Positions 3,386-63,967 of a stretch of 64,000 bases of DNA are shown here, piece after piece. The notes beneath the pieces were generated by a model, which did no database searches, was not told where the DNA came from, and was given only the letters and a program-made list of their open reading frames with translations. Numbering within the stretch: the first letter of the stretch is position 1; every line of letters starts with the position of its first letter. Origin of the DNA: Phoronis australis. Taxonomy: Eukaryota; Animalia; Phoronida. The position numbers and the translations under genes were made by a program. The stretch spans positions 599,387 to 663,386 of the forward strand of contig NMRA01000169.1 of NCBI GenBank assembly GCA_002633005.1, in the 5' to 3' direction.

Positions 3386-3495
3386 GGTAATAGTTGGATA
3401 TAACAGGAGTGCATTTTGAGAACCAGTTTTCTCCACTGAATAATGGGCATTAAACCGGTTCTCAAAATGTGGGTACGCTATATGCAACTATTGCC
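3386..3495. mobile_element. ~110-bp palindromic MITE-like element, copy 1
   Basis: Arms ggtaatagttg..cattttgagaaccagttt / aaaccggttctcaaaatg..caactattgcc; related copies at 20159, 30309 and 52426. Confidence 0.7.
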
Positions 3496-11908: not shown

Positions 11909-12124
11909 GAGTCTCATCAATACACGCATGAGAACATCGCTGTCTCATGAGTCATTATTCAATAGCACGTCACGCACTGTCGACCTAAGCGGCACCGACG
12001 TCGAGATCCGCCCCCTTCACAGCAGTATTCTGGGACAAGAGCACTGTTTCCAGGTGCTAACGAGTAACGGTAGCAAGTTCTACTCCTGTCGTTCCGCCGA
12101 GGAGCGAGAAAAGTGGATTGAATG
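11909..12124 (+). CDS. RASAL2: RasGAP exon (PH domain C-terminal part)
   Basis: ctttgcag| acceptor, |gtgagc donor; [41 protein letters not shown]. Confidence 0.92.
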
Positions 12125-30308: not shown

Positions 30309-30414
30309 GGCAATAGTCACAGGGGTCCCAGATTTTGAGAACCAGTTTGATGCCCATTATTCAGGGGAGAAAACTGGTTCTCAAAATGCGGGACGCCTGT
30401 AAGTGACTATTACC
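30309..30414. mobile_element. Palindromic MITE-like element, copy 3 (inverted; in the RasGAP 3' region)
   Basis: ggcaatagtcac..ttttgagaaccagttt..aaactggttctcaaaa..gtgactattacc. Confidence 0.7.
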
Positions 30415-32473: not shown

Positions 32474-32688
32474 CTAATACAACACACTGCCATTGGTGGA
32501 CAGTTGACGCTGAACAGTATAGTTGTCAAATACTAAGTTTTTATCAACAGACGACGTCTTCTTTGTGCGATTACTAGCAGCAACGATGATGATGATCAGA
32601 AGAACAAGGCTGAGAACTGCCATCCAAATGATGAGTAATAACATTACGTTGTTATTGACGATGGCATCGATGCCGTCTCCCGTTTGAG
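32474..32688 (-). CDS. Gene A TM and cytoplasmic-tail exon
   Basis: catttcag|; hydrophobic ~24-aa helix followed by a basic stop-transfer segment (RTKK); TAG. Confidence 0.88.
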
Positions 32689-35600: not shown

Positions 35601-38600
35601 AATAATTAAAATAACCTCCCACATAAGATAAACACAATTTCCATGCACTTCTAATTGCAGTAATTCCCACAAACTGTGTCAAGATAAAGTTAACTCTCCC
35701 CGCCCACACCCAAGCATACCTTCGCACTCTTTCTTGTTTTCCTTCAACTTGTGCCCCTTGCGACACGTACACTCGTAGCTGAAGAAGTTATCCGCACATT
35801 CTTGTTGGCAGCCACCATTATTGATGAGACACTCGTTGGTCTCTGTCAGACGAAAACATGGCAATAAAACTCAGTAAAGTTTGTTGAACATTAAACGTAT
35901 AAGCACATATAATCACATGCATTTACATAGAATTAATAGAAAACTTGTGGGTTTCTTATCTATGCTGCTGCTACAATATGGAATTCTCTTAGTCCAGAGA
36001 CGGTCCAATTCACTTAATACTTTCAAAATTAATATTAAAAAGTGGCTGTAATTTACCTAACCTTTGTATACCCTACCTGTCTTAATCAGGTCAGTTTTTT
36101 CATTGTCGTACGTACTCTCACTGGTTACAGTCATCTATTTATTTCATCTCTCTTTGTTAAATTTTCACCATTCTTTGTCATTTATTTATTTCCTTAATTC
36201 TCAACCTGCTTTAATTGTGTGTTTGTTATGTATATTTAATTGTTGTTTTATCACTTCATTGTAATATTTATTTACTGTTTTTTGTTGTTGAGGGCCCTCT
36301 TAGAAAGCATTCCTATCTTTGAAGAGGCCACCCTCATTTTAAATATCACAATAAATAAAAGTAAATAAAATAAATAAAAATGGGGCAAAATCGTTCTCTT
36401 TTGGCATAAACTCACATGAGGTTTATAGCCGTGCATGTGGAAAACAAGCATGAGGTCATACAAACCTCAGGCAGACTCCCGCTGAGCAGTTGCACGACTT
36501 CACAGGAAGTGGGGCAAAAATTCACCTAAGTTCCTTCTCATCTTGCAAAAAGTCAGTTGTGGATAACTGCTTAGTATGTCAGTCTCAGTCTTTATTAAAA
36601 CAAGCTCCAAATGTTTGTATGCGGTCTGCTTTTGCTCATGCGCTTTGGTCGATAATGGTTCATATTTTTTTACTTCCTTAGAATAAAACAAGGTTTGAAA
36701 TTAAGTTTGTGTAATTTTGTTCTTAGGAGTAATGAAAATTTACCCTTACCTGACACATCCAACAGTTTTAGAAGATTTTTTAAAAAGGCACTATTTCTTG
36801 TTTTCACCAGTTAAGAACATCGAATTAATCCCATCCATTGAAAGATATCAATAGAATAAGATTTCATAAATTTGATACAGTCCTGTGTGTATCTGTACTC
36901 GTTTATTGTCATGCAATTTTGGCACATATTTTGTTGGTGAATCACCAGAAATTCAAAAAGTATACTTAAAAATTCAATCGAATTCTGTTGATTTTAAAAT
37001 GTGATGTCACGTAGTGACAGGATGATTTGAGAATACATTTTGAGATGATAGTTAGGTTACAGTAGTTGTAAAATTAAGATTAAGAACATGTTTGTTTTCA
37101 ATCTTGATGAGAAAACAAATTAGAGACCTATGCATTGACTGATTAGCTGTTCATCTTAAAATGGTAATATTTAACGATTTTTACACTTACCATGCAAACT
37201 GGAAGACAACCAAATTGAAAACTTACTATTTAAACTCCAAATAAATGCTCTCCTAACACTTGCACGTTTCTGTGGCAATACGTTAAACAATATGACTCAA
37301 CACTACATGATGTCACAATCAGAGTTCCTTTGCCTAATACAAGGTACCTGAGAGCAGTCTAGACGGCATCATGTAATTCACTTGGAATGCACGCGAAAAC
37401 TTCCCGCGATCTCGCCAATAGCTACACAGATACACCTCAGACAACATCGTTCTTGAGACAGTTTTTCTTTACACTCACCTTTGAAGTTCCCCGAATCTCC
37501 AGCAGGTCCCTGGGGCCCTACAGGACCCTTAAGCCCTGTGTCACCCTTGTCACCTTGCGCTCCTTGGTCTCCCTTGACACCAGTGGTCCCCTGGTCACCT
37601 TGAGGACCCTGGTCACCCTGCGGGCCCTGTGGACCTGGTGGACCTTGATTGCCAACATCCCCTTTAGGACCCTGCGACCCTTGAGACCCTTGTGCTCCCT
37701 GCTGACCAGGAGGACCTAGAAGAAAAACACACACGTGCACTTGGCTAAACGTCATATTTCATTATGGTATCGCTCTTCGATTTCACACAAACAATTGCCA
37801 AAATTGGAAATTCTTCGCTTCTCAAATAGAGCTCAGTTTTTATCACATTTATTTTAAACAGTAAGAAAGGCAAATTTTTCTCAATATTTATTTTTGTTGA
37901 GAAATTAACTGCTGTTATGTAGGACCTTGTTAGTTTTGGGGAACAGTGCATAAAGTACACATAATATCTCCAAGTTTCATGTAAATCCGATCAGCTATTT
38001 CTGAGAAAGATGTTCCAAAGTTAGCCAAAAGCTGGCCATTTCCTAGGGTCCTAAATAACTTTAACATTTTCATATTCTGCATGTCTCCAAAACAGCCTGA
38101 CATAACTTTCACGACAGACAAAAAACAACATCACTGCATGAGGAGAGGCCACAAGGGGTTTGTTAAAGTGACTTAAAAGCAAATTTCTGAAATTTGGTCT
38201 TGCACTCTCACTTCACAAGTATTGAAAACAACTTAGCCACGTAATTATGAATGCATCACAGTAATTTGTATAAATTTCTCAATAACCAGCAGTTATATGT
38301 AATATTCTTGGATACCAAGCACTTTTGCTCAAGTGACATTTAATTATTTTTTAAATGTTGTGTGAAGCATAAGACCAAATTTAAGTCTTAAATAGGCCTG
38401 GAACATGATAAACAGACTAGATTGCAATACTGAAAGTGGTTCTCTACCACTGAAACATAATTCAACCTGCTCATCAGGTATTTTTAGGGTTGGTTCATAA
38501 AGATTTTTAATTTCTGTAGATATCAAAGCATTCTCTTTTGGTTTCAAATTTCAAAAAATACGATCTGTCAACTGCTCCTCGAATTTTCTCCCACAAGGCA

Positions 38601-40593
38601 AATCACATCCACTTATTTAGTATGGTAAGACATAGGCTTACTGCGGCACATTTCCCTTATATGGAAAATGTGACCTTTGACCTGAAGTGACTACAAGCAA
38701 CTGACTGTGAGCGCATGTGCGCATTTATAATAAGCGAGAGGGAGATTAGAAACTGTGGTAACTGCAGTTTTTCCTTAAAAATCGTGAATTTTGTGATTTT
38801 TTCTGGAAATTTCCCCTCAGGGAAAGTGAATTATTCTGTATTAGATGTTGCAAGACGGTACTTTCGTCAGGAATTGTTAAAAAGATATTTTTGACAAGAT
38901 TTCGCGTTCCATGCCTCTTTAAGATGTTTTTCATGAAACAGGAGCCTGTTATGTAGTATGTAAAGTCTTCAAACTGTAACTGAAGCAACAGCCTTACCTG
39001 GGGGTCCTCGTAAACCATCTGGTCCCTTGGGTCCCTGTGATCCTGGAGGACCCTGCTGACCTTGGACACCAGGAGGCCCCTGATTCCCTCTTGGACCTTG
39101 CGGACCCTTATCGCCAGTAATACCACGGTCACCTTGAGGTCCTTTGTTACCCTAGAGAAATTGAAAAAATGCTGAACTGACAGAACAGAAATCAGCCCAC
39201 CTTAGTTACAGGGTGGAGAAACAAGTCATTGCCTGAGCTTGGAATACACAGTGTCTCCGACCCTAAGTTGTGAGCCACAGTTGCTCCAGAACCTGTGCAG
39301 TCATTGGACATTGAGGTCCAGCTTGCCTTATTTTTTGGATTGGATGTAACCCATATGCGAGTTTAGGCTGTGCCTCTCAGTGCTTGGGCACCCCCTTCAA
39401 ACAGTGACCAAGGGAAACGCCGCTTTCATACCATTTTAGGGGCTTATACAGATATTTTACCTCAACATCCATGATTGACCTCGGGTGCAAGATTCCTGAT
39501 ATCAAAATTACATATGAGGGATATCATACTCATAATACTAATTAATTCACATTTCGTGTTTAAGTCCAAACTGTAAACCATTTTGATAACTAATGTAAAG
39601 TTAATATTTATTATCTTGAGCTAATATTTAAAATAAAATTAAGCTTAACTTAATACATTAATATTATGCAAAAATGCTTTACGAAGACAATGACTAAGAA
39701 GTGAAGACTGGTTCATAATTAATTAGGAGTAAAGATTTTACAGTTGAAACTAAACACAAAGTCTGACATCCAAATCATAACACCCTTCAAAGTAGAACAA
39801 AAACAAAAATCTCATTTTAAATTGCAATTCCATCATGATGTACTTTACCGGTGGTCCATTTGCACCTGGGTCTCCCTGGTCACCGGCTGGTCCTGGTGGG
39901 CCCGGTGGTCCCTGTGGTCCAGGAACAAAGTCGACGCCTGGAAGACAGGGAAGATTATAAGGCTACTCAATAGTCCTCAAGTGGAGCTAGTGAATTAATG
40001 TCCTAATTTTGACAAGAATATTTGAAATTCTTTGAATGTTTTGCAACAAAGATCACAAAGCTAGGATATGGCCCAAAGGAGTTCTCACAAACAATGATTT
40101 TTCAATATCTCACCAACTTAGAACGCGGTGTGGTGTTCAACTGAAATTTTATTTTCTAATATTCAAATAAGAGACATGTGGCATCAAATTATGGTTTACT
40201 TTACTAAGTTCAAGTTCTGCACCCTACTAGTAGTTACTATTGGAAAATATTTTGAAAAGGTGGGGGCATCCACAAGTCACAACCATGTTACAAAACCTTG
40301 AAAACAAAAGTATTGATGATTTTTTGTCCAAAATTGGTGGATATTTTACCATAAGAGATAAATAAAAATTATTAGTCTTTTACAGACCACTGGCCACGCC
40401 ACTTGACTTACAGACATGTGGCTTAGGGGGCCACACAAACTTAGAAATATTCAACCACGGCAGATCAAACTACTTGAAAATCATAGCTTAGGGGACCCAT
40501 AGAGAAACCTGAATCCAACACTTAAAACGTGTACTTACTTTGTCCATAAGATATTAACAGTCCTAGGCATAACACAACGGCGAAACCAGCCAT
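32474..40593 (-). CDS. Gene A: type I transmembrane collagen-cbEGF protein (368 aa): signal peptide, ~51 Gly-X-Y, 2 cbEGF, truncated EGF, TM, short tail
   Basis: complement join 40539-40593, 39849-39937, 38998-39151, 37479-37715, 35720-35842, 35213-35335, 33859-33969, 32474-32688 = 1107 nt, all GT-AG and phase-consistent. [24 protein letters not shown]-(GXY)n-ETNEC..-DINEC..-DLDEC..[30 protein letters not shown]..SVLY*. Confidence 0.88.
33859..33969 (-). CDS. Gene A truncated (4-Cys) cbEGF exon
   Basis: [37 protein letters not shown]; ctatag| and |gtatgt. Confidence 0.9.
33995..34116. repeat. ~39-bp tandem repeat, ~3 copies
   Basis: ttcagtgccatgct(a/g)agt.ccaatcaaatcagg.catat. Confidence 0.8.
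35213..35335 (-). CDS. Gene A cbEGF exon 2 (missing from the ORF track)
   Basis: [41 protein letters not shown]; 123 nt, phase 1-1. Confidence 0.92.
35720..35842 (-). CDS. Gene A cbEGF exon 1
   Basis: [41 protein letters not shown]; 123 nt, phase 1-1. Confidence 0.92.
37479..37715 (-). CDS. Gene A collagen exon 3 (237 nt)
   Basis: [19 protein letters not shown]; ttctag| and |gtgagt. Confidence 0.92.
38998..39151 (-). CDS. Gene A collagen exon 2 (154 nt)
   Basis: [21 protein letters not shown]; ctctag| and |gtaagg. Confidence 0.92.
39849..39937 (-). CDS. Gene A collagen exon 1
   Basis: [29 protein letters not shown]; cttccag| and |gtaaag. Confidence 0.9.
40539..40593 (-). CDS. Gene A signal-peptide exon
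   Basis: ctttcag|AATG; [18 protein letters not shown]; |gtaagt phase 1. Confidence 0.82.
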
Positions 40594-40662
40594 TCTGAAA
40601 GTGCAGAGGTTACAATCACATAAACAACACCAATGACATTCATTAGACTGCCTGAGCTATGT

Positions 40663-40818
40663 CAGTGGCGGATTTAGGGGGGGGGGGCAAGGAGGCCATG
40701 CCCCCTAAAATTTTCCCAGATTCCATTTAACAATACGAGGCTGCGAATGTCCGATGGGCAAAATCCTGGCTAACACTCTGCCCTGGCCCCCTAACTCAAA
40801 ATCCTGGATCTGCCCCTG
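40663..40818. mobile_element. Non-autonomous DNA transposon (CAG(T/G)GGCGGAT-type TIRs)
   Basis: cagtggcggatttagg / cctggatctgcccctg with G and C runs inside; a related decayed element sits at about 12435-12590. Confidence 0.6.
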
Positions 40819-41910
40819 TACGTAATGTGTCTCACTTTGGGTTTAGGTTAGTGTCAGCAATACCCTACCATTATTTGGACAATGGTCTTAAACAATATTT
40901 CTGCTCAAAATGTTTACCAAACATTGTAATTATAGTCATAGCTGAGTGTACTGTACAAATCATTCTTAAAAAAGTAATTTCAAAGTAATTTTATTGACAA
41001 ATTTGACTACATGAAATTCCATGCATCATATCATTCGGTTGACTTAGGGGATTTTTCACATGTAGGCCTACTCTTGACTTGTGGCTTTGACAGATTTCGC
41101 ATGTACTCTTGACCTGTGGCTTTGACAGATTTCCTTGTAAATCATATATTTCATTTATTTGTGGAAATGTATCACTTTTCAGGAGAAATGTTTTTGTTTC
41201 CAAGTTACTGAACTAATAAGAAAATTATATCAAATCTAACCCACTGAAGACAATAGTTAACATTAATTCTAGTTCAAAGGAGTCACAAAGGTGTGAATCT
41301 AATAGTGCTTGGCGTCTATTGAACAAGCTGTATGATATATAGTGAAATAGGTTCTTTCTGTGGTTGTCAACGCGTCTGGTATTGTAAGTTGTTGGAAGTC
41401 TTCAGAAACCGGCTAATAGATCTCTGGAAAGGCTTTCTTCAACTTCTAAATGTCACGCGCCCTGCAGTAACTGTTTACGTCACCGCCAATCTGTTCTTTT
41501 TTGTCTGCATGAAAACGTAACTGAACGCCTCTAATGTAACCATCATCTGAGTTCGAAATGACGAGCAGCCGTTATTCGGAATGAGACACTCATACCGGAC
41601 AAACAAAAAGTAACGGCAACCACCACTAGACTGACCACCACTAGACTGACCACCACGGACGGTCTTGGTCTTGCGCCATCTTCCAATAAGACAATCGCTG
41701 TGATCGAGGTGAACTCAATGCTACCACGCTTAACTGTGTCAGTGATAGTTGGCAATCCAACATACTATTTTTGGTAATGTTCACTTATTGTCATTCGCTG
41801 ACTGGTTGAGCTAGTTGGCGGTGATGTAAACAATTACTCGGGCCAGATCATTCCAAACAAGAGAGACTACCTCACCGAAGTCGTTGGTAACCACTTACTA
41901 TTTTCCTTAC

Positions 41911-42050
41911 CTCAAGCTTAGTAACAACAGAACACCTGTTTGTCAAAACTGCACAAAAATATCAACGTTTCGAGGCAACTCGAACAGTTCTTCAGACACA
42001 GTGCCTGGCCAGTTTCGTCTTCTGTTCTGGTGTCTCGTCCAGCCTCGGCT
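41911..42050 (-). other. Probable non-coding 5' UTR exon of gene A (5' boundary uncertain)
   Basis: Strong minus-strand donor GAG|GTAAGG at 41911/41910; the ATG exon at 40594 is preceded by an acceptor, so an upstream exon is expected. Confidence 0.4.
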
Positions 42051-47362: not shown

Positions 47363-47516
47363 CAATATGATGACCATAGGTCTGCAATATGATGACCATA
47401 GGTCTGCAATATGATGACCATAGGTCTGCAATATGATGACCATAGGTCTGCAATATGATGACCATAGGTCTGCAATATGATGACCATAGGTCTGCAATAT
47501 GATGACCATAGGTCTG
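47363..47516. repeat. Perfect 22-bp minisatellite, 7 copies
   Basis: caatatgatgaccataggtctg x7. Confidence 0.95.
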
Positions 47517-48326
47517 CCACAGACATTGTCATATTCTATGATGACCTCACTGAATGTCATTAGCAATCTCATTTATGTTTTATCTCAATACAAACTAACA
47601 GACTTACACACAGCTGGTTATGAAACCATGCACATCTCTGACACTAATTCACAGTCAGCTTTGTTTAGTTTGGTTAATGATGTTCAGAAAATCATGAGCA
47701 GAAAGTCTACACATTTTCATCAAATACAAGATGGCATGGACAATCCCAAAGCTGCAGAACTTTCAGGAGTACAACAAAATTTGCTTAACAAAGTTGACAT
47801 AATTCCAAACACCTTTATTAACGTTGCCATGAGGCCAACACCTCCTCCGACCAAATCCAGCAGGAATTTCTGGAAAACTGCAATTACTTTTAAACATTTG
47901 CTTCTGCACACACATAGCTCCATCTGACCAACTGACCAACTGACCAAGAGATCAGAAGATTGTTTCAATTTTTTTACACAGTCTTAACAAAAACTTACGA
48001 ACCAATTGTACGTTTCAGCATGAATACCCCTTAAAACTGCGTGTAAAATCATGAACTCAGACCCAGAAAGTAATTTCTAACAGTGTAGTAGAATGTAATT
48101 TTCTGCCACTCATCAAAATTAAATATCAAAGTTTTACTATTTAACAAGCACTTTATCAGGGAAAACTTTAGGTCTCAGATAATTTCAGAAGAACTTGTCT
48201 CCTTGTATGAATGTCCCAACTCAAACATCCAATTCTCTACTCTCTATTCATCATGAAATGATAGACAAATCTTTACTATCAGATCTAGCATGCAATGGTC
48301 AGTGATTTACAAAAATGCCAATCAAC

Positions 48327-48766
48327 CTATGTGCGTGACCACACAGACAAGCTATGTGTGGGAGAGGAAGGCTCATTGGTGGGCAATGCCGGCAGCGGAG
48401 GGGCCATGAACGTCGCGGAATCCCGATCTTGGGCCAAGATCACCGGCTGTTCTGCTACAGGCTCCGACATAAACACCACTGGCTGTCTAACAGAGGGCGC
48501 TGGAGCTAACGACACCACACGCTTCACGGATGGGACCGCTTTCACCGAATAGACAGGCCTCAGCGAGGGAGTCGATTTCATGGAGCTGACATTCAGGTTT
48601 TCTCTTGTGTTGTATATGGTCTCGGCCTCTCGGTAGATGTTCTCTTTGCTCGATCGTCGCGTGCACATGATTATGATAATAATGAGAAGGACAATGGTCA
48701 ATATGCAGATCCAGATGAGAAGAGCGAGGATGACCCAACGATTGAGAAGATTGTCCATCACATTAA
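48327..48766 (-). CDS. Gene B TM and cytoplasmic-tail exon
   Basis: cttgcag|; TM helix alignable to gene A, ~110-aa tail, TAG. Confidence 0.88.
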
Positions 48767-51700
48767 CTGCAAGTGGTAGTCATAGTTGCATAATATTAGC
48801 ATATAATTAAAGCAGACACAAGCCAACATTCCGCACAAGAAGCAAACTTTTGATTTAGACCACTTACCGCTTAAAAATAATAAAACTGGTCTCAACTCAT
48901 TCCTCACTCAGATGAGAAGTGATTTTTGGGTTTTTCAAAGAACTGACAGTTCGTTATTCCTAAATAGCGACCATGTTCGGCACATAAAATGACACACCGT
49001 GACAAGACAACTTGTAGGAGCTGGTCTCCAACAATAACGAATGGTTAGTTCTTTCAAAGGCACCCTAACTTGACTGAGGTACAATTTGAAAGCAATTTTA
49101 GGATGGTGACTGGCCTGAATCAAAAGTAGGTTACTGTGACAAAAAGAGGTTATAGTTGCTATAGGTAGCAGCGGCAGTAAAATTGAACTAAATTGTTGTA
49201 AAATACACAGTCTAGTTAATCTCAAAAATGTGACTTACACTAGGTGGCATTGAGAACTAAGAATTACATTCAAAAAGAGTGCAAGTAAATTTACTAGCAT
49301 GAGAAAAAGTACTGAGTGGCGCTTCAAAATGCTGATAATTTGAAAGATGTTTTCAACTTTCATCTACTTTTTTTAAAGAAAAAAAAATTATGCTCAAAAT
49401 CGAGCACATCTGAAAACCCACAGAACATAGTGACTGTCAGACATTAAAAGCATTGATTACGTGAGTGAACCTGTACCAACAATGTATACCTCAACACGTA
49501 TTTAAATGAAAAACTAGGCAGTAGCACATCCTAATCCATCTAGTATGCCCAAAGATTTTCTCCAAATTACGTTAAACTCTCGCTAAACAATCAATGTCAT
49601 GTTACTTTGTGTACCTTTGGAGTTAAGACAGACACCTTTGGAGCCAGTTGAATTCTATAGATGCTTCCAGCTCCAACAATTGCAATCACAATCACCATTT
49701 TTGGAATAGTCCTTCATTCCACCAATGAAATTGGAAACTGAACTCTATTACCGTCGATGTGCTCGGGGCCAAACGGAGATGTACGAAAGGTCATCCATAT
49801 GGCAGCCATGCTGAGAGGAGGCAGGGGTCCCGTCTAGTCAAAAACTGATGTCAACAGACACACGATAACCAGCCCAATATTAAATGCTATAATTACCTTG
49901 AGCAGACGATGACTGTGTGTTGCTAGGTAACGTCATACATTGGTAGGACCCGCGGTTGTTGACGCACACGTTTCCTGGACAGAGGCCGGTGGATGTCACG
50001 CATTCGTCCTGATCTGAAACAGGAAGTGACATTTTAGGTCAAAGGTTAGCTACATAATTAAAAGAACGTTATGTATCAAAAAATTCCGCAGTGCCAAGAA
50101 TGTCTGTCTACGGCAGGAATCGAGTAAAATACAGCAAAGTCAGTTTTAAGGTGGGATGTGTGGTTTAAGGTTTTGTTGTTACGACAACAGTCTTGTCAGT
50201 AAAAATTAATAAGTGCCTAATCAAAATATCTTGGTGACAAGCTTCGATAGATAGCAAGTCAAGAAGGAGAGCAGTTGTAGTGATTGCGAGGACAAATAAA
50301 ACAAAACAAAAGAAAAATGTTCAGTTATGATCAATGATAAGCGTGAGTACAAACGCGAGATATAATCAAAGTGAATGTAATTCTTAATTTGTTTTAATAA
50401 CAATAATAATAATCTTTACTTTTTCTTTTGTTTCAAGTTCACAATAGAAGACTACTAAGTTTTGCTAGAGCTTAGAACACTGCTAAGAACTAAACTGCAT
50501 ACAAGAACATAAACCTGAAGAGATTTTCTACAGCTGAAGCCTGTTAGCTCAGAGCCTTCAACGCGTTTTCACTCAGGCTATTGAAACTGTCTATTGTATA
50601 TAGAGATACCTGAGCTAATGAAGGGGAAATGTAATCAGCACTTAGCAAGTCAAAGTCTTTACGTAAATAGCTGACAATTTTTTAAATATCAAAGATCGAA
50701 CTGACTTAATTTTGTTGTTGAAAACACTGTGGTCATATTCTTGAAATTTTAGGTTTAAAACTTTTTTTTTGTAAATTAGACGCCAAGTTGTTAACCACTG
50801 TTTAAGACCAAACACATAGACACCTGGTCACCTGTACAATACATCAGTCTTGGGCATGTGAGGGATTGAAGCTTAAGGCATTTGATGCGGTGACATACAG
50901 CTTTCCTGGGGCTCTAGGGGTAAAAATATACCGATTTATGTAGGTGTGTGTAGAAGGTTTCACTGGAGAATTTTACTAAATAATAATCATGTCAAAATGA
51001 TTCCCACCGCTGCACGTGAGTCTGTTTGCCTCCAGCACAAAACCTTGAGGACATTTACAGATGAAGGCGCCATACGTGTTCTCACACGTGTGACTACACA
51101 GTCCATTCAACTCATCGCACTCGTTGATGTCTGTAAAGAACATATGACATATTAATAATAAATTATTAAAAATTAATGAATTACCTGTATTTCACATGGG
51201 CAAGCTTACCAAGCGTACTTATTACAACTCCAAGAACAAAGCTGCCAGAAGTACATCTCCGTCAAAAACTAAATTTTAATTCACACTATTTACCATCATG
51301 AAATTGGTCTCACTTGGGAAATGGTCACTGAGAGGAAACCAGTTTGACGCGTGTTATCCAAAATGCGAGACTCCTGTAAGTGACTGTTACAACTTTCTTG
51401 TTCCTTCATCAGATTGATTGATTTCTGGGATTTGTTACTATTCGAAACCAGTGTCAGCAAATTGGCATGAGACGGCAGGTCATTTGGTCTCGAGCGATAA
51501 CAAACCCTCAAATTTTCCATGCCCAAATTTACTTCAACTTCCAAAAAGGCACTTGCGCATTTTTTCCTGAACTACACTTGCCAGTAATAACTATTAAGAT
51601 ACCATTATGTTTGTGCTCAAGGCTCTTTAATTTTAACTGGACGTCATGTCAACTCGTAACACTCTTTGTATATTCTATAGTTTGGATAGATGTCCCTCAA

Positions 51701-54700
51701 AGAAAAAATGTCAATTTTGAAATAGAGGTTTGCTGGGATAAGAAAAAAAATAACTATCTGAATATGTGTGTTATTTAATTAACAAATTTTCACTGTGGAA
51801 AGAGTGCAGTATTTAAAGCAACACAGCTGATGTTGGAAATGATGACAGTATCAATATTGTCAATAACAAAATTGTCAATATCAACAATATCAATATCAGA
51901 ATTGTCAAATATATCAATTCTGCCAATATCAACACTGTTAATATCAACATTGTTTATATCACCACTGCCAATATTGACACTGTCAATATCAGTGATAACA
52001 ATATCAACACTGCGAATACAAGAAACATTTATGAGAACACTGCTGATATCAACACTTTTGACATCGAACACATCAAACATCAACAGCTTACCTGTACAAG
52101 ATTTCCCATTACTGGCCAGCTGGAAGCCCTTATTACACTTGCAGTGAAAACTGGCCCAGGTGTTTACACACTCATGGTCACAGCCTCCATTGTTTACAAG
52201 ACATTCGTTCACCTCTGAAATATACCATCACCACCTTGAGTTACAGTATAGTCTTCCACATGATTACCGTTGGGCAGTTTGAAACATTCTACTGACCCTA
52301 GCTAACATTCAACAATGTGATTATCTAGTACAGAGAATGGATTATTGTTTAGAGGTAAGTCACAATTTTTCACATTTCAAAATTTTCAAGTTGTCACACG
52401 GAGTCTCAGTTCTCACAGTCTGCAGCCCACATTTTGAGCACCAGTTTTCTCCACTGAATAACGGGCAACAAACTACTTCTCAAAATGTGGGCACATTATA
52501 TCCGATTACAGCGCAAAATCCAGTGTGAAGCTTACTGCTCTGCGATCAGGTTTATCATTTTACCACAAATAAATGTATTGATCTCTAAGTTAATTCCATC
52601 AAATTGTATATTAATTCTCATCCGAATTCAAGCACCAAATTCTCCACACAACGTAATGATTTTTCTCCCAAAGTATTTTTTGAACAGAAATAATTATTCA
52701 TGAATACGTCAGTCCAGAGACTACAAACAAATGTAGGGTCTCAAAATTCACAAGGGGTCTAGGGACACAAGGGTCTAGTAACACAAGGGGTCTAGGGACA
52801 CAAGGGTCTAGGGACGCAACGGGTCTAGTTACACAAAGGGTCTAGTGACACAAGGGGTCTAGGGACACAAGATGTCTAGAGACACAAGGGATCTGGGGAC
52901 ACAAGGGTCATAACTTACATTTAAGCATGAATTCAGGTAGTTAAGTGGGATTGTGAAGCCCAACAATTGCCCTCATGCTTGCAAACACCCTAAATTTTAA
53001 TCCTGTTCCCATTCAAAAAACAAAAAATGCCTTTGTTCTTTAGCACCACCTAGTGAATTCTGATCCACCCATTAATCCATAAAACTCACCTGTGACCTTG
53101 TAAGCTGGTCCTCGTTCCCCCTTCACACCAGGATTCCCCTGCGGCCCAGTGTCTCCCTTATCACCCTTGACACCACCACTTCCAGTTGGCCCCTTGGCTC
53201 CTACCGCCCCTACATTCCCCTTCGGACCCTCTGGTCCAGGTGGTCCTTTGGGACCAGATGTTCCAGTGTCGCCTTTATCACCCTGATTTCCCTGGTCACC
53301 TTTCGGGCCAGCACTACCAGCTGTACCTGTGAAGAAAGCCAAGAAAAAAATAAGAATTTCACACTAAAACAGACCTGCACAAACCAACTGTGATCACATT
53401 TCCTCCATTGTGTTATTATAAAAGGATGTTTTCAAAGGTTTAAGTGTTAACTGACTTTCAATACATGCAATTTGCACGGAGTTTAGCGTGTGCACTCTGT
53501 GCTGACACACAAAATACCATCACTCTGACATAACCAAACGATTGTAATCAATTGTTTTGCATTACATACAATCATTGTATGACCTCAAAACATGACATCG
53601 TTCCCAAAATATAATCCATTGACCTTTGTCCATTCCAAGCATCTCCTGGAAGTTTTTTAGATGTCTCTACAAAGCTACTACCTGACTGACCAAAAGAGTA
53701 ATCGACATATGATCGAAAGTCTAAACACAACTGCCTTCCACAAATTACTAACAGCAGATGAGATTACATGAGGAAACAATTTATGGACTTTACACTTCCT
53801 CAATTTGTTGGTTTTCATGTCATTGAGGGGTGAAAACCAACACATTGACCTCCGTGAAAGTCAACAAAAGTATGAGATTAACTACTGTGCAATAGATTGG
53901 TATAAATGCCAACAATTTATGTACAGTTGAGAAACACAAATGTAATTATAAGAAACACTGACTTTAAGCACATGTTAATTGAATAAATTGTATCATCTTG
54001 CAAATTCTCTGACCATATATACAGTAAATAATTTTTGATTATTAAATAAAAAACAAAAAATAATTAAGCAAAAATTTCTTTAGTGCTCTTATTTCACTTA
54101 TAAATGATTTTCCAGTTACTGCTACATAAACATAGACTTCCCCAACACAATTGCTTTCAGTAAACACACAACACAAGCTCTGCTTACCCTTCACACCAGG
54201 TGGCCCCTGTGTCCCTTGACTTCCTTGTGGACCCTCTGGTCCTTTAGGTCCTGCATCGCCTCTCACGCCCTGCAACCCTTGCAAACCAGTATCCCCCTTG
54301 GTGCCCTGTGACCCCTTCGGACCCTGATCGCCTTTAGGGCCCTACATGAGATAGAAACCACTCAATGCTCAAATACTGTTCATGTTTTACCAGAAGCTAG
54401 TTAATGTCTTCCTAAAACCATGTCAGAGATGATGTGGTAACATCATTTCTAAAATCTCATGAACTATTTACACCAACCTCCAGCCAATTTGCATTGGCAC
54501 GATGTTTCAGCCCATCACTTTTACAGCCATCTTCAGGTGTTACAGCGTTTGTAGAAGAATGAGCACAGGAGTGTTGTACACTCATGGTGCACTTTTTTAT
54601 TTTTCTTCATGCATAAGGCTAGGATTGAAGTTGGGACCTTTATATTATCAGTGCACCACAGAGTCATCAAAGAAATGACTGGTCAAAATGTTGTGGGCTA

Positions 54701-57700
54701 GTAGTTGGACAGGTGTAAATAGATGAACAGACTTTAGAAATGATGTTAACCGCTAGTTAGCTACATAGTTAGTAGACATAACTGCATCACCCAGCGCCAA
54801 ATACATTTTGAGGACACGTAAACTGCAGAGTGGAGTCAATAAAACACAATAAAATTGTTATTTCAACTTAACGCGTTATGAAACTTTCAAGACAAGATGG
54901 ACACACATTGTCATGATACTCTAAAATGATGACATCATCCTTTGCACCAGTTATTTCCAAGGCATTTTGCATTCAGGATTTTATGTGAAAAAGCACTATT
55001 CATGAAAAGTTTTGGTTGAAACTATGCGCCACCTCTTCTCATGTCTAACATTTCAAACAAGAATCCTGAATCAGAACTGATTTGAATTTGAGTTCATCAA
55101 ATCTCCACAATGTAGCCATTACATCAATCACAGTTCGACCAAACATGTCCTAAATGGATTTGGCAATTTAATCGTCTTCCCATAGTCTGCCAATGTTGTT
55201 AACCTGTAGTTATCTCCCATATAAAATGAAGATTAGTTGGGTCAAGAACAGTAGCCAACTCACCAATTGGCGCGTTTGATAGCACTGCGGTAACTTGCCG
55301 AAAGGCAAACGTGACAGTGAAAGAGTCAAACAAGCTAAAGATTACTATAACTAAAACAAGCCAAAGTGTACTTCTTAATGAAGCTGAGAACCAAACTGAG
55401 GCTATGAGAGCCACAAACAAATATCGTTAACAACTACATCGAAGAGGTCTTGCATAATATGATAAGCTATACTGATGTCAGGCAAAGACAGATCTGAAGC
55501 TTAAACATCTAACCAAGGTCAAACTTTGGGCCAGGATTAAGTTAAGATTGTGACTTGGGGTTATGGCTAGAATTTGACTGAAGGCCATATTGCATTTAGC
55601 ACACAAAATGACAAGTAACTTTCACTTTACTGAGTCTACCCTTCTGCAACAATGATTCGCCAGCTCTTCCCAAGGTCAAGGGTCACTTCAATCTGAGAAT
55701 GCTTTTAATTTCAAGTGTTCCAATTCAAATATTGGTGTTTCTGACATCCAAAATCGNATGTTAATTGAATAAATTGTATCATCTTGCAAATTCTCTGCCC
55801 ATACATACAGTAAATAATATTTGCTTATTAAATAAAAAAACAAAAAATAATAAAGCAAAAATTTCTTTAGTGCTCTTATTTTCCAGTTTTTGCTACATAA
55901 ACACAGATTTCCCCAACACAATTGCTTTCAGTAAACACACAACACAAGCTCTGCTTACCCTTCACACCAGGTGGCCCCTGTGTCCCTTGACTTCCTTGAG
56001 GACCCTCTGGTCCTTTAGGTCCTGCATCGCCTCTCACGCCCTGCAACCCTTGCAAACCAGTATCCCCTTTGGCGCCCTGTGACCCCTTCGGACCCTGATC
56101 GCCTTTAGGGCCCTACATGAGATGGAAACCACTCAATGCTCAAATACTGTTCATGTTTTACCAGAAGCTAGTTAATGTCTTCCTAAAACCATGAAATGAT
56201 ATAGTAACATCATTTCTAAGATCTCATGAACTATTTACACCAACATACAGCCAATTTGCATTGGCACGATGTTTCAGCCGGTCACTTTTACAGCCATCTA
56301 CAGGTGTTACAGTGTTCGTAGAAGAATGAGCACAGGTGTGTTGTACACTCATGGTGCACTTTTTTATTTTTCTTCATGCATAAGGCTAGGATTGAAGTTG
56401 GGACCTTCATATTATCAGTGCACCACAGTCATCAAAGAAATGACTGTTCAAAATGTTGTGGGCTAGTAGTTGGTGTAAATAGATGAACAGACTTTAGAAA
56501 TGATGTTAACCGCTAGTTAGCTACATAGTTAGTAGACATAACTGCATTACCCAGCGCCAAATACATTTTGAGGACACGTAAACTGCAGAGTGGAGTCACT
56601 AAAACACAATAAAATTGTTATTTCAACTTAACGCGTTATGAAACTTTCAAGACAAGATGGACACACATTGTCATGATACTCTAAAATGATGACATCATCC
56701 TTTGCACCAGTTATTTCCAAGGCATTTTGCATTCAGGATTTTATGTGAAAAAGCACTATTCATGAAAAGTTTTGGTTGAAACTATGCGCCACCTCTTCTC
56801 ATGTCTAACATTTCAAACAAGAATCCTGAATCAGAACTGATTTGAATTTGAGTTCATCAAATCTCCACAATGTAGCCATTACATCAATCACAGTTCGACC
56901 AAACATGTCCTAAATGGATTTGGCAATTTAATCGTCTTCCCATAGTCTGCCAATGTTGTTAACCTGTAGTTATCTCCCATATAAAATGAAGATTAGTTGG
57001 GTCAAGAACAGTAGCCAACTCACCAATTGGCGCGTTTGATAGCACTGCGGTAACTTGCCGAAAGGCAAACGTGACAGTGAAAGAGTCAAACAAGCTAAAG
57101 ATTACTATAATAACTAAAACAAGCCAAAGTGTACTTCTTAATGAAGCTGAGAACCAAACTGAGGCTATGAGAGCCACAAACAAATATCGTTAACAACTAC
57201 ATCGAAGAGGTCTTGCATAATATGATAAGCTATACTGATGTCAGGCAAAGACAGATCTGAAGCTTAAACATCTAACCAAGGTCAAACTTTGGGCCAGGAT
57301 TAAGTTAAGATTGTGACTTGGGGTTATGGCTAGAATTTGACTGAAGGCCATATTGCATTTAGCACACAAAATGACAAGTAACTTTCACTTTACTGAGTCT
57401 ACCCTTCTGCAACAATGATTCGCCAGCTCTTCCCAAGGTCAAGGGTCACTTCAATCTGAGAATGCTTTTAATTTCAAGTGTTCCAATTCAAATATTGGTG
57501 TTTCTGACATCCAAAATCGACCAAGGCAAGTAGTTTGGGAAATTTCACAGGTTTGCAAACAAGAAGGTTCTTACCTGTGAACCAGACGGTCCATCGGGGC
57601 CTTTGTCTCCCTTGGTTCCGTTCAGCCCTGGTGGCCCAGGAGGTCCAGGAATGTACTCCACTTTGGAGGTCGTCGTTGGCGTCTCAGTTGTAGTAGGTCC

Positions 57701-60700
57701 AGCAGTTGTCGTGGGATCCTGAAAAGCTATAAAGAGAGCAATAACATTAATTTTATAAACTTCCTTCTTGTCCTTGACATTAACCAGTTGGCTGCGGAGA
57801 GAATTCAACAGTTAGTGGATGATAGAAATGTCAAACTGCCTCCATGAGACGGACGTTAATTCAAGAGAGCAAACTGACTTAATTTTTCTTTATTCTCAAA
57901 AAGAATGTTAGGTATGTTGATTATTAACTTATTTCGGGTTTTATGCCAAATTAATTCGCAAAATACAAGGCATTTTTGTAAAAAATCAAATCAGTGGTTT
58001 ATTAGTATATCACTCCATACGCGAAAACTAGGCAATTCGAAGCAAAATCTCAACAGTGTTTTTTAGGCATAATGTAAAAGTTTTTATTTGAAGCTTTAGT
58101 AAAATTCACCGTGGGAGTGGGAGGGTTATTTTCCTGTGAATGTATCTTTCTTGTAGGGGGAAATTTGACTTAAAAAACATGGTCACAGTAGACAAAGACA
58201 CAGTAGTAAGGAGCATATTTTTAGAATTTTCAATCTTTGTCCTTTCAGAAAATAAATACTGTTAATGGTTGACAAAGCATATTTTTTATATCTGACTTAC
58301 AGCTGAAGTCATTTATTAAGGTTCTAGATAACCTTCAATGATCAAGGCCCACACTTGGATGGAATGGATTTAATCTACCGAGAAAGCACAAGACCAGACC
58401 AGCCCCAGTACACCACAGTACAATACCAGACTAGCCCCAGTATACCAAAGTACAAGACCAGACTAGCCCCAGTATACCACAGTACAAGACCAGACTAGCC
58501 CCAGTATACCACAGTACAAGACCAGACCAGCCCCAGTATACCACAGTACAAGATCAAACTAGCCCCAGTATACCACAGTACAAGACCGGACCAGCCCCAG
58601 TAAGTGCCCAACAAGTGCACTTCAACTTGCAATAAAAAATGTCGTTGATGTGAGAGACAATAAGTTTCAACATACAGTATGAATTGAGCTATAACTTGCA
58701 AATACAGTAACCTTTACTCAAATTCAAACAAAATACTGGCTAAAAATAGTTGTTTCTGTCAATTTTCATATGTTCGCAGAATTGCCAAAAATGTTCAAAT
58801 TTCATTGTGAGTTTGTTGATGACATCTGTAATGTAAAGATTTCAAATTGATGTACTTGGGTAGCACATTTTCCGTTACACAAATTTGTTAAAGACACGAC
58901 ACTTCTTGTTGTAAACATTCCGTTCCTAACCTTGGAACAAAGTAATTGAGGCTCGACAGAACATTGGTGAAGTAACTGAACAAGAGACATGATTAAAAGA
59001 CATACGAAATTTCGAAACACACTTGTTTCATTCTCGAGCGTGACTTTCCCCCCATTTGTCATTCTTCGCAGTACTTCAAGCCTGCCGTGTCCCACTGTGT
59101 ATGTTACAAGCTTTTGCTCTGTGGTGGTATTAATGCGTCATTTTATCATGATGTCTCTTAGTCAGATACTTTACCAATGTTCAGTTTTGCATAAATAATG
59201 AAGTACTATTTTGTTTCTTGTTTACTGTTCTTGAAAACTTTGATAACATAAAATTTTACTGTTCCGTCATATTTTGTTCTAACTTTAAGAAACTTCAATA
59301 TAATTTGAAGCGGTCAAATTTTGGAAGGGGTAGAGCCATAGTTTTCTGAAGCATTTTGGACTCATTAGGTGTAGAACAGGAAACCCAAAACCTCTCCATA
59401 GCCCCCTGCCAGCGAGATTTCCTTTGATCTCATGCAAATACCAACTTTCCTCAGTTATCTACAGTGCCAATGAAAAACTACCATGCTGAGCATGTTAGGT
59501 TTATTGACTCAGATTACAAACCACACAGCTGCCTGGCTATACTGAAATATTGTGTCAGGTAGTTTTTGCAATTCTGTGTTTCTGAAACACAAAAATTTGT
59601 CCGTAAACAATTACGTTACAGTATCTTGATGTGACCAGTTTAACAGCACATGTATTGTTCAGTGGTGATTCCTGCAGTCAGACCAACAGATGGCGTGATA
59701 AGGGCTACTGCTAACATAACTGATATGGCTTGAGCCCATCATTAGAGGGTAATCGTACAGTAACCTGACTTGTCAGAGAACAGTCTCAGCCACATTTTGA
59801 GTTTCCGTATTCTGCCTAATGTAGTAAACTCGTGGTAACTAAAATACAGTCCAACAGGATTTGTCATTGAGAGATAACCAGCGACTGAACTGAGCACTCC
59901 AGTCAAATTTCGGAATGGGTCACCCAGCTGCCAGATTTTTAGAAGGATACGGTGGACAAGTGATATTTCTCAGAAAAGCTTGGATTGAACAGACTCGTAT
60001 TAGTAGCAAGACAATCAACCTTTGAAAAAAAGAAAAAAATTCAATTTTTGCAATTATTTCCATGCAATAAGTGAAGAATTGCCCCAAATAGGCTGATATT
60101 AAAGTTCTCTTCGCTTGGGACAGAAAATGCAAATTGACATAGAAAAAACTTTAGTTTTGGCAATACTGTGGGAACCGACTCGAGGACAACAACTACAGCC
60201 CCACAGATGGAGCAGCGGCACACTTACGTTCGATCTGAACTCCGATGTCATAGCGGTACTGCGCATCGGCGGCAGATTCTCTCAGCATGTAAATGCTACC
60301 CGTCTGAGGGACGCCAGACGCACTCACTAGGTATCTGTAGATCTTTTCATTCACCTCATTCGGTCCAACTGGTTTACGGCCAATTGGAAACGAAGACGAG
60401 TAGGATGCAAATGCCATGACATCTCCACTGAACAACAGGGTGCTTGGTAAGGGTATCTGCAATACAACACCCACTGGTCATCTAGATTCATTTATTAGAA
60501 TTCCTGATGACACAAAGGTGCCATGAAACAGCTTTTATTAGTCAAAAAGTAACTTTAGGTCCAGGCCGCAGTAAAATCTTACTAATTTAGGACACAATAA
60601 GGTGGACAGGTGAAATTTTATTATCTCATTTTTTTCACCGAACAAATACATGTTCCCTCAGTTTTAAGCTATATACTACAGCTACCACAATACAAAGTGT

Positions 60701-63700
60701 CGAGCCTTTTAAAAATGAAAAAAAGGCAATTACTTTTCTTTCAAAATTGGTGAGATATTACCACAGGGTTACAAAAATGGTCTCAGCTGGACCTCCCTCT
60801 GGTTAGGAGTGAGTTCTGGGCTTGAGAACAACCGACACAATGGTAGTGCTAGAGAGTTTGAGACCTTGAGGACAACCGACACAATGTCAGTGTACAGAGT
60901 TTGAGACCTTACTTGGCACATAAAATACCAAACTGGGTCAATCCAACTTATTAAGCCTGTTTCCAAACAATAGCATGGTGTCTATTCTTCCCAGACATCC
61001 CACCTAATCTGACTCAAATGTTGTCAACCCACAGTCTTACCCCAGACCAAGTTATCAAGGAGTTGTTGCTAGGTTTGGGTGCTGTCTGAATGCGACTTGC
61101 ACCCACATTTGATAACTAACTCCACCTTATTGAGGTAGGGTAACTACAATTGTTCTAGGGTAACTTGAGCCACTTCTAAGCACTGTGTAGATGCAAACCT
61201 GGATTGAGGCAGAAGTATCAGCTAATGGTATTCGCAGCAGATGCCATTCTCACAGAGGGACAACTTCCACCTAATTATCAGATATACATGCGTGTGAATG
61301 CTCCACTTAAAAGTGGCGTAAGTTGCACCAGTGCAAGTTGTTTTGGGGTAGGTCTGTGTGTGGACAGGACTTTAGGAACAACGAGAGACCAGTTTAATAA
61401 TAAGTTGCATGAATGAAAAGTTTTAACAGGCAGAAGGTGTCTTTTCTCCTCGTTTATAACCCTAGTCAATTTCTGGGGTCAGCTTTGCGGTGCTGCTTGT
61501 AATCACTAGAAATCAGAAGCATAAACGTCTAGGCTTTTCAGTAAATGTACAACATGAAATAAAATTGGTAATTCTTGGACAATTTTGGAACTTCAAAAAT
61601 CTATACTTATCTAGTGAAATGGACTACAAGAGCAACCCAATGCGCCTAAAACAATAATGGACGAGGAAAATCTTGTGCAAAATTAAAATGGTCAACACAA
61701 GACAGGTTCCTCCATTCAAATATCACTGCATTTTGTGAGGGCATTATCATCACTCTGATAACCAATGATGTACATAGGTCACATTGCCCCTTTACATTGC
61801 TCAAGCGGGTTACACATTAGAGATTGGAACATAACAACAAAGGAACAGCAGTTGCAATGCATGCATGGTATTTCTTTATTCTTCTGTTGTTAGTTAATTG
61901 ACTTTTGTGGTTCAAACAATGAAAAAGTTAAATTTTCGATCACGGACTTAGTTTAGTATGAAGTGTCTAAAATGGTTGGAAAAAATGTTGCCACACAAAC
62001 AGGCACGCGATTATCACTGACACCCATCTTTGTTCTCTAATCCGCGAACAAAAGGAGCCAATCATAAATGATCAGCACCTGTGGGAATTGCCTACTGTAA
62101 TCCCAATAGGTAAGAAATAGTTGCATTGAGTTTTGGGAAATGAGATGTAGTACCTTAAGACCTGTGACAGCTAGCGCCATCTGCATCAAATACTTCTATG
62201 TCAAGTTTCACCAAAATCTGTTAAACCTTTTGACAAAAATCAGCAAACAACCAACAACTTGCTCAAAACTAAAATGGCCAACAGGGGGTGCTGCAATAGT
62301 CAGATCCAGTGTTTGGAAATCAAATGGTGTCAGCACATCAATTACAAAAAACATCCCATTTCCTTTCAACTCCTGACAGCGGTTTCTAAATCAAGGCAGG
62401 TACAGATTACAATTTTGTGACCCCATGCTTGAACTGAGAAATTACCTAACATGCATTTTTTTAATTCCAAACAATTTGAAAACTTGCCAGATTTAGTACA
62501 TGATATATTAATTTATTTTAGGACTGGTGTTTTATTGCCGTCAAATCAGTTGCAAATGGGTTGATTGTCCTACTCTGCACAATAGGACTTTAGATCAGGT
62601 TCCTAGATAAACGCCTACTGAACAGAACAAACGGTCAAAATGACAATATACGAACTCAGAATTTTCAGCGAGCAGACGAAACTGACAATTCAAAATGACC
62701 CACTTACATCCATGCGGCCAAGTTTTGAAGGCGTGACACTCTGGCTGAACTTCAACTTATACTTCAAGACCGGCTGAATGTATCGCCATATCTGAATATG
62801 GAACTCCTCCAGATTTGTTACATACACTGATGCAGCCTTCAGCGTACCATATGGGAGCTCTATTTCGCTGAAGATGTAGGAGCCAGCATCACTAGTAAAT
62901 GCTTGACTAGTGCCGTCAAACGTTGCGGGATCATGGTTATACCAACTCAAAGCTGAAAAGATGAAATTTTTTTAATGACATCACTTCACAATAACTGCAG
63001 GTTTTTACAAGCCTGGGGGAACACTAATACGTGCTTAACTGGCTGACTTTGAAAACATAATTCCAGGACATCGGCAAACACTTCATGTGCCTTTTTATTG
63101 GTCTTAGACTGGAGATATTTTACCTTTTAAGCATATCCATATTTATCGTAAAAAATGGCATGAGAAGAGTGGAGGCAATAAGACCTTATGATATGCACAA
63201 TGGAACACAAAAATGCCAATAAAACCCCGTAATTATAATAATTCAAGTACTGCAGTACGATAACAACAGACATAATGAAAAGAAAAGTTCACTGATTTTA
63301 TCTTTCAAATCCGTACCTACACCAATTAGTGGCCCCTACAGCATCAGACATGACACGCAAATGCACGGACTCTTGAGGGGCCCAGGTGTAGGGACACACA
63401 CCAGAGTGGCCCCTACAGCATCAGACATGACACGCAAATGCACGGACTCTTGAGGGGCCCAGGTATAGGGACACACGCCAGAGTGGCCCCTACAGCATCA
63501 GACATGACACACAAATGCACGGACTCTTGAGGGGCCCAGGTGTAGGGATCCACGCCAGAGTCAAATATATATATAGCCGAAATGGACGAACTCTAATGAC
63601 TCAACAGCAGCGCCATTATGTCATGATCACAGACCACTGAGTGAGTAATTGATTGAGGCTGGTCATGCAGGCAAAATTGAAAGACCTTCGTAATGCTAAG

Positions 63701-63967
63701 TTGATACACATATAAACTTCAACTATAGGCACACCATAAATCGCTTTTGCATTACAATGCAGCTTCTCATTCATTCCCTAGCATACATTCACATTTGTTC
63801 AATGCTTGACTGTCTGCCAGTGTTGGTCAGGATTTGAACCTGGGTCAGTGAAGAGCTCAAACTACTGAGCTACACTGTCTTCTCGTGAAGAACAACTCAC
63901 CACTGAAAACCCCATCAGTAACAACCAGTAGTAACACAGCAATGGAAGGTAGCGTCTTGGAAAACAT
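48327..63967 (-). CDS. Gene B: type I transmembrane collagen-cbEGF protein (628 aa) with an extra N-terminal domain and Thr-rich stalk; paralogue of gene A
   Basis: complement join 63901-63967, 62708-62952, 60228-60456, 57575-57726, 54188-54341 (or the duplicate 55959-56112), 53090-53326, 52092-52214, 51008-51130, 49897-50013, 48327-48766 = 1887 nt, all GT-AG and phase-consistent. [23 protein letters not shown][27 protein letters not shown](GXY)50-EGF-EGF-truncated [31 protein letters not shown].. Confidence 0.87.
49897..50013 (-). CDS. Gene B truncated (4-Cys) cbEGF exon
   Basis: [39 protein letters not shown]; gtttcag| and |gtaatt. Confidence 0.9.
51008..51130 (-). CDS. Gene B cbEGF exon 2
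   Basis: [41 protein letters not shown]; 123 nt. Confidence 0.92.
51845..52085. repeat. Degenerate (tcaata/atatca)n low-complexity tract in an intron
   Basis: Repeated atatcaac/tgtcaata units. Confidence 0.7.
52092..52214 (-). CDS. Gene B cbEGF exon 1
   Basis: [41 protein letters not shown]; 123 nt. Confidence 0.92.
52426..52510. mobile_element. Palindromic MITE-like element, copy 4 (partial)
   Basis: cccacattttgagcaccagttttctccactgaataacgggc..ttctcaaaatgtggg. Confidence 0.65.
52748..52908. repeat. Imperfect 16-17-bp minisatellite, ~9 copies
   Basis: acacaag(g)ggtctag(g/t)(g/a). Confidence 0.85.
53090..53326 (-). CDS. Gene B collagen exon 3 (237 nt)
   Basis: [22 protein letters not shown]; ttcacag| and |gtgagt. 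Confidence 0.92.
54188..54341 (-). CDS. Gene B collagen exon 2 (154 nt)
   Basis: [24 protein letters not shown]; catgtag| and |gtaagc. Confidence 0.88.
55959..56112 (-). CDS. Gene B collagen exon 2, duplicate copy (likely alternate haplotype)
   Basis: Near-identical to 54188-54341 with intact splice sites; lies in the duplicated block after the N. Confidence 0.55.
57575..57726 (-). CDS. Gene B Thr-rich stalk and collagen exon 1
   Basis: ctctttatag| (phase 1) and |gtaaga; [50 protein letters not shown]. Confidence 0.88.
58388..58602. repeat. 32-bp minisatellite, ~6.7 copies
   Basis: acaagaccagac(c/t)agccccagtataccacagt. Confidence 0.9.
60228..60456 (-). CDS. Gene B N-terminal domain exon 2
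   Basis: tattgcag| and |gtaagt; [28 protein letters not shown]. Confidence 0.82.
62708..62952 (-). CDS. Gene B N-terminal domain exon 1
   Basis: cttttcag| and |gtaagt; [44 protein letters not shown]. Confidence 0.82.
63328..63561. repeat. 77-bp tandem repeat, 3 copies
   Basis: agtggcccctacagcatcagacatgacacgcaaatgcacggactcttgaggggcccagg.. at 63328, 63405 and 63482. Confidence 0.9.
63901..63967 (-). CDS. Gene B signal-peptide exon
   Basis: tttttag|ATG; [22 protein letters not shown]; |gtgagt phase 1. Confidence 0.8.

What the first reader, a model, noticed from the sequence alone, without database searches (positions are those of the whole stretch)
60228..62952. Unassigned cysteine-free ~155-aa domain at the tip of the gene B collagen rod
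Seen: two exons encode a Cys-free domain with alternating hydrophobic residues ([46 protein letters not shown]). It lies between the signal peptide and a mucin-like Thr/Pro stalk and is absent from gene A. Inference: a beta-sandwich or jelly-roll head that would be displayed as a trimer, analogous in function to collectin, ficolin or C1q heads but at the N-terminal end. The QIWR..YKL..GDV pattern reminds me of uncharacterised marine-invertebrate domains, but I cannot name a family.
Basis: partly seen in the sequence, partly recalled or inferred. Interest (0 to 1): 0.7.

Follow-up and report, generated by a model that had tools for sequence, protein, structure and literature searches.

The report
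Jelly-roll head on membrane-anchored collagen
Two exons that RNA reads show spliced into this animal gene encode a 158-residue outer domain with no named family; it likely folds as a jelly-roll binding module of an unnamed family also seen in bacteria, phages and other animals, and would sit three at a time on the tip of a collagen stalk predicted to be anchored in the cell membrane by its far end.

The parts
63901..63967 (-). Gene B signal-peptide exon (22 codons, ends phase 1)
   Evidence: ATG, hydrophobic stretch, GT donor; spliced to 62952 in reads
62708..62952 (-). Head domain, first exon (residues 23-104; carries the WR and YxL motifs)
60228..60456 (-). Head domain, second exon (residues 105-181; carries the GD motif; ends phase 1)
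57575..57726 (-). 26-residue Thr/Pro stalk and first 8 collagen triplets
55959..56112 (-). Collagen exon, 154 nt (copy joined to the stalk exon in reads)
54188..54341 (-). Duplicate of the 154-nt collagen exon (3 base differences); both copies together break the frame at codon 285
53090..53326 (-). Last collagen exon, 237 nt
   Evidence: Pfam Collagen E 4e-16; joint to 52214
52092..52214 (-). EGF module 1
   Evidence: Pfam FXa_inhibition/EGF_CA
51008..51130 (-). EGF module 2 (calcium-binding type)
49897..50013 (-). EGF module 3, four cysteines only
   Evidence: joint to 48766
48327..48766 (-). Predicted membrane helix (about residues 494-517) and cytoplasmic tail of about 110 residues
   Evidence: hydropathy 3.5 over 19 residues
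32475..42037 (-). Gene A, headless paralogue: 5' exon, signal peptide, 51 collagen triplets, three EGF modules, membrane helix, short tail; same collagen and EGF exon sizes (154, 237, 123, 123 nt)

Best explanation
The two exons are spliced into gene B and encode its outermost 158-residue domain, which likely folds as a jelly-roll beta-sandwich, is probably a divergent member of an unnamed domain family lying near the PHR, Cwp84 lectin-like and DUF4082 domains, and would act as a ligand-binding head (most likely for sugars or other repeated surface patterns) held three at a time on a collagen stalk predicted to be anchored by a C-terminal membrane helix. Shown: exon structure, splicing, domain order, absence from gene A, phase 1-1 borders. 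Inferred: the three chains are gathered by their membrane anchors and the collagen itself, not by the head; 150 collagen residues lift the heads about 43 nm (textbook rise per residue, recalled) above the EGF modules; the Thr-rich linker lets the heads swivel, so weak single-head binding becomes strong by avidity. Inferred history: genes A and B arose by tandem duplication and the head was gained by B or lost by A as a phase 1-1 exon cassette.
Confidence: 0.55

Rival explanations
1. The head is a C1q/TNF-type trimerising jelly roll that nucleates and caps the collagen helix from the N-terminal end.
Against: All those Foldseek rows have E above 0.05; TNF-type rows rank below Cwp84 and PHR; no C1q or TNF Pfam hit for either exon or for 11 family members. 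Gene A has the same rod without any head, and a 26-residue Thr-rich linker separates head from helix.
Confidence: 0.12
2. The head is the same jelly roll but binds a protein (matrix, neighbouring cell or a second copy of itself), making gene B an adhesion or matrix-anchoring molecule rather than a sugar or microbe sensor.
For: PHR, discoidin-receptor and neuropilin domains are among the fold matches. EGF-plus-collagen proteins occur in shell matrix in Lingula (4 of 17; PMC4595640 supplement passage). Genes A and B are expressed in the same two of three RNA runs, as for a tissue-specific structural pair.
Against: No partner is known; many of the 50 listed fold matches are carbohydrate-binding modules. 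These points do not separate the two readings well.
Confidence: 0.25
3. The domain is not related to the recovered family; the WR...Y.L...GD likeness is what any beta-rich domain would give, and its fold and origin remain open.
For: Weak profile scores, masked test not significant, two invariant glycines missing; no true relative among 1.84 billion representatives for exon 2.
Against: Co-linear 24% identity over 150 columns with an animal-type member, C-terminal likeness outside the motif, matching length and phase 1-1 borders, and the independent PHR lead.
Confidence: 0.2

Closest known systems
Cwp84 lectin-like domain (PF18560 Lectin_like; PDB 4ci7; PMC4089489)
   Different: 8% identity; attached to a cysteine protease; no Pfam hit in either exon or family member; sugar binding unproven even for Cwp84.
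PHR domain (PF08005; MYCBP2, BTBD2; PDB 3gbw, 3hwj, 3no8)
   Different: Scores below the tool's bar; no Pfam PHR hit; PHR proteins are cytoplasmic ubiquitin-ligase parts (recalled), this one follows a signal peptide.
DUF4082 (PF13313)
   Same: Atlas neighbour of the family (0.87); scores against the family as well as the window's domain does.
   Different: An 11-sequence DUF4082 profile ranks the domain among its shuffles (-0.8 bits).
Collagen-stalked recognition proteins: collectins, ficolins, C1q, and the membrane receptors MARCO, SR-A, CL-P1 (recalled)
   Same: A globular head on a collagen rod, giving three heads per trimer.
   Different: Their heads are C-terminal and of named families; the membrane ones are type II. 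Here the head is N-terminal and the predicted anchor C-terminal, behind three EGF modules.
Lophotrochozoan EGF-collagens (Lingula; PMC4595640)
   Same: Collagen joined to EGF, EGF_CA and FXa_inhibition modules; tandem duplicates reported (passages).
   Different: Described as shell-matrix collagens; the passages I saw mention neither a membrane anchor nor such a head.

Membership tests
Unnamed WR...YxLVG...GDxxG family (alignment A2, 19 sequences) | Five invariant columns (Arg, Gly, Gly-Asp, Gly) | tested here: not met
   3 of 5 kept (Arg79, Gly115, Asp116); the other two are Phe and Ala, by eye. The invariance partly reflects the scan pattern.
Unnamed WR...YxLVG...GDxxG family (alignment A2, 19 sequences) | Significant profile match | tested here: inconclusive
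   4.2 bits; 5, 55 and 224 of 2000 shuffles under three controls; top of 1226 window segments but E 1.2.
Unnamed WR...YxLVG...GDxxG family (alignment A2, 19 sequences) | Likeness to animal-type members outside the motif | tested here: inconclusive
   C-terminal third 4 of 1500 and 2 of 547 decoys; N-terminal third 596 of 1500; only two such members.
Unnamed WR...YxLVG...GDxxG family (alignment A2, 19 sequences) | Same fold as the family model | not testable with these tools
   The spliced domain cannot be folded as one chain here; exon 2 alone gave pLDDT 47.
PHR (PF08005) | Pfam profile match | tested here: inconclusive
   No hit, but each exon was scanned alone; Atlas 0.79 is a lead only.
Lectin_like (PF18560) | Pfam profile match | tested here: inconclusive
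   No hit for single exons or for 11 family members.
Lectin_like (PF18560) | Bound calcium site as in Cwp84 | not tested
   No residue-level alignment to 4ci7 was returned.
DUF4082 (PF13313) | Profile match | tested here: not met
   Spliced domain -0.8 bits against a shallow cyanobacterial profile, rank about 365 among 1000 shuffles.
C1q/TNF heads | Profile match | tested here: inconclusive
C1q/TNF heads | Head trimerises by itself | not testable with these tools
   Needs the whole domain in three copies or a bench test.
Collectins, ficolins, C1q | Secreted, head C-terminal to the collagen | tested here: not met
   Head is N-terminal; protein ends in EGF modules and a membrane helix.
Type I membrane collagen-EGF protein | Signal peptide, unbroken Gly-X-Y run, EGF modules, one C-terminal hydrophobic helix in one frame | tested here: met
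   628-residue frame, 50 triplets, Pfam hits, hydropathy; 7 of 9 joints listed in reads.

The most novel reading that the evidence does not exclude
An unnamed jelly-roll binding domain shared by bacterial surface proteins, phages, sponges and worms has been captured as a plug-in exon cassette and mounted on a reverse-polarity membrane collagen, making a new type of pattern-recognition receptor whose number of heads (one to three) is tuned by co-assembly with its more abundant headless neighbour, gene A (51 versus 50 triplets, same samples).
Probability: 0.2. Interest if true: 0.72.

Novelty: new variant of a known kind. Interest (0 to 1): 0.45.

Why it matters
The family behind this domain seems widespread (bacteria, phages, sponge and annelid clusters) yet has no Pfam hit and no solved member by sequence, so naming it and finding its ligand would annotate many orphan surface proteins. 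A head on a collagen anchored at its C-terminal end is the reverse of the familiar collagen-stalked receptors, and the neighbouring headless paralogue is a natural control for what the head adds. If the head only proves to be one more divergent galactose-binding-like sandwich in an invertebrate mosaic protein, the interest is moderate.

Tried and rejected
No whole genome is held, so other copies in this organism could not be counted. Single exons gave no meaningful hit in Pfam, NCBIfam or PHROGs, PDB sequences, plasmids or phages (17, 18, 28; the best plasmid hit lies outside any listed gene that fits), the 5.8-billion-protein word search for longer proteins (exon 2, exon 3 and the tail exon: 0 of 37, 0 of 94, 0 of 1374 candidates), or back-translated scans of genome, metagenome and viral contigs with exon 2. 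The 1.84-billion search with exon 2 returned 6 proteins, all repeat-summed artefacts; exon 3 was not run there. Exon 2 against 47 and 251 genomes gave only chance hits that do not extend into exon 3. A first DNA motif gave 11 matches in 301 cyanobacterial genomes, the same level as its backwards control. Family profiles found nothing in 251 Pseudomonadota and 121 further cyanobacterial genomes and nothing new in 251, and no PDB sequence of note. The exon-2-only model (pLDDT 47) was too poor to search. A second Atlas look-up of the window's own sequence was not possible, so exon 3 was never looked up there; no RNA holder listed; the RNA runs were added by species label. Rows left out of alignment A2: L213, L229, L185, L265 (near or exact duplicates). 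Literature: searches returned 0 papers; others returned 1, 2, 1 and 6 (listings only, none on this domain by title or abstract start); 101 and 114 led to the two papers read as passages (PMC4089489 main text; PMC4595640 main text and supplement passages). bioRxiv supplements and most subscription papers were not searchable, so a description of the family may exist there.

Full report
What is there. The window is animal DNA with introns (a marine invertebrate is my guess; no call names it, and no genome is held). On the minus strand lie two tandem genes. Gene B has ten coding exons from 63967 to 48327 that give one open frame of 628 residues: signal peptide, the domain in question (residues 24-181), a 26-residue Thr/Pro linker, 50 unbroken Gly-X-Y triplets, three EGF modules, one strongly hydrophobic helix and a tail of about 110 residues. 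The finding's coordinates are the outer edges of exons 2 and 3. RNA-seq from the same species label shows 7 of the 9 joints among the 15 listed (6 more not shown), including all three that tie the domain to the signal exon and to the collagen; counts are low (1-8 reads per run) and come from one study. Gene A has the same collagen and EGF exon sizes, 51 triplets and no head. The head exons begin and end in phase 1, so they can be added or dropped without shifting the frame; this is the only large difference between A and B.

No named family. Each exon was searched alone, because the tools take only contiguous window DNA. Pfam, NCBIfam, PHROGs, PDB sequences and the large protein collections gave no true relative. 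Half-domains lower sensitivity, so these blanks do not prove novelty. The Atlas listed PHR as the only named neighbour of exon 2 at 0.79, which is a lead only. The two exon peptides co-folded with weak support (0.57 against a best control of 0.02, with the counts given under evidence), in line with one domain split by an intron.

Finding the family. I scanned collections with a degenerate pattern for WR...YxL[VI]G...GDxxG, taken partly from the domain and partly from recall. It gave in-frame members in 1 of 8 viral loci, 12 of 57 metagenome loci and 3 new ones among 38 further viral loci. A profile of the first 11 found members without the pattern in 4 of 201 cyanobacterial genomes and 1 of 201 genomes of another phylum, and none in 251 Pseudomonadota. 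The 19 non-redundant sequences have no Pfam hit where scanned and no PDB sequence match; those with a source name are 'hypothetical protein'. Two members, L195 and L215, look like single animal exons with phase 1 borders and carry cysteines that the window's domain lacks. Prokaryotic members are stand-alone secreted-type proteins or modules beside fn3, GDSL esterase and lamin-tail domains. The Atlas shows at least 30 unnamed clusters near a cyanobacterial member, with annelid and sponge clusters among the top three.

How good is the link? By eye it is co-linear over the whole length, 36 of 150 columns identical to L195. By numbers it is weak. The profile score is 4.2 bits, reached by 5 of 2000 full shuffles but 55 of 2000 motif-keeping shuffles and 224 of 2000 with the motif masked (85). 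Outside the motif, the C-terminal third resembles the two animal-type members (4 of 1500 natural and 2 of 547 beta-rich decoys do as well), the N-terminal third does not (596 of 1500), and against all 19 members the non-motif parts are not better than 9% of decoys; DUF4082 domains score as well as the window's domain (100). Two invariant glycines are replaced. I put membership at about 65% and a jelly-roll fold at about 80%; I do not file it as a member.

How it likely works. The collagen forces three chains together; with a C-terminal membrane helix the anchors likely gather the chains. Gene A has the same rod with no head, and a flexible linker separates head from helix in B, so the head is unlikely to be the trimerising unit. 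That leaves a binding role at the tip, about 43 nm beyond the EGF modules, where three weak sites would gain avidity. A sugar or microbial pattern is my first guess (about 35%), a protein or matrix partner second (about 25%). Gene A has roughly five to ten times more junction reads than B in the same two runs and both are near zero in the third, which allows, but does not show, mixed trimers.

Comparison and verdict. It would work like a collagen-stalked receptor such as MARCO or a collectin, but fails their defining layout. Collagen-EGF fusions are in print for Lingula; an unreviewed AI note reports the same collagen-EGF-membrane layout in another genome (not checked). My nine paper searches found no description of this domain family or of such a head. 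Verdict: real, spliced, unnamed domain of a probably known fold class in an unusual architecture; function untested; interest 0.45.

Noticed in passing
window 53972-55756 and 55758-57519: A 1.79-kb tandem duplication (96.7% identical) doubles the 154-nt collagen exon. Both copies run phase 0 to 1, so using both stops the frame at codon 285: mutually exclusive exons, a segregating duplication, or two haplotypes assembled side by side.
   Followed up: partly
window about 11835-28737, + strand: A PH / RasGAP / DAB2P_C gene of the SynGAP-DAB2IP type, tail to tail with gene A.
   Followed up: partly
window 49897-50013 and 33859-33969: The third EGF module of both genes has only four cysteines and is followed by a short Ser/Thr linker to the membrane exon.
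   Followed up: no
window 32475-42037 versus 48327-63967: Gene A has 24-54 junction reads per listed joint in runs X5 and X6 and 0 in X7; gene B has 0-8 and 0-2. The two rods differ in make-up: Gln-rich Y positions in A, Lys-rich in B.
   Followed up: partly
L195:144-686, L215:209-754: Animal-looking single-exon members of the unnamed family inside metagenome contigs, each with cysteines; the family may be a mobile phase 1-1 module in invertebrates.
   Followed up: partly
L193, L209, L256: The unnamed domain sits directly before a GDSL/SGNH esterase domain in three loci (Pfam-checked for L193 and L256); esterases with accessory sandwiches (9kqz, 7tog) are among the fold matches.
   Followed up: no
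window 3387-3483, 20159-20254, 30327-30392, 52425-52502: A short dispersed repeat of 60-80 bases, very deep in DNA and RNA reads, probably a small mobile element.
   Followed up: no
window 47363-47517, 58383-58602, 63328-63561: Minisatellites with units of about 22, 32 and 77 bases.
   Followed up: no
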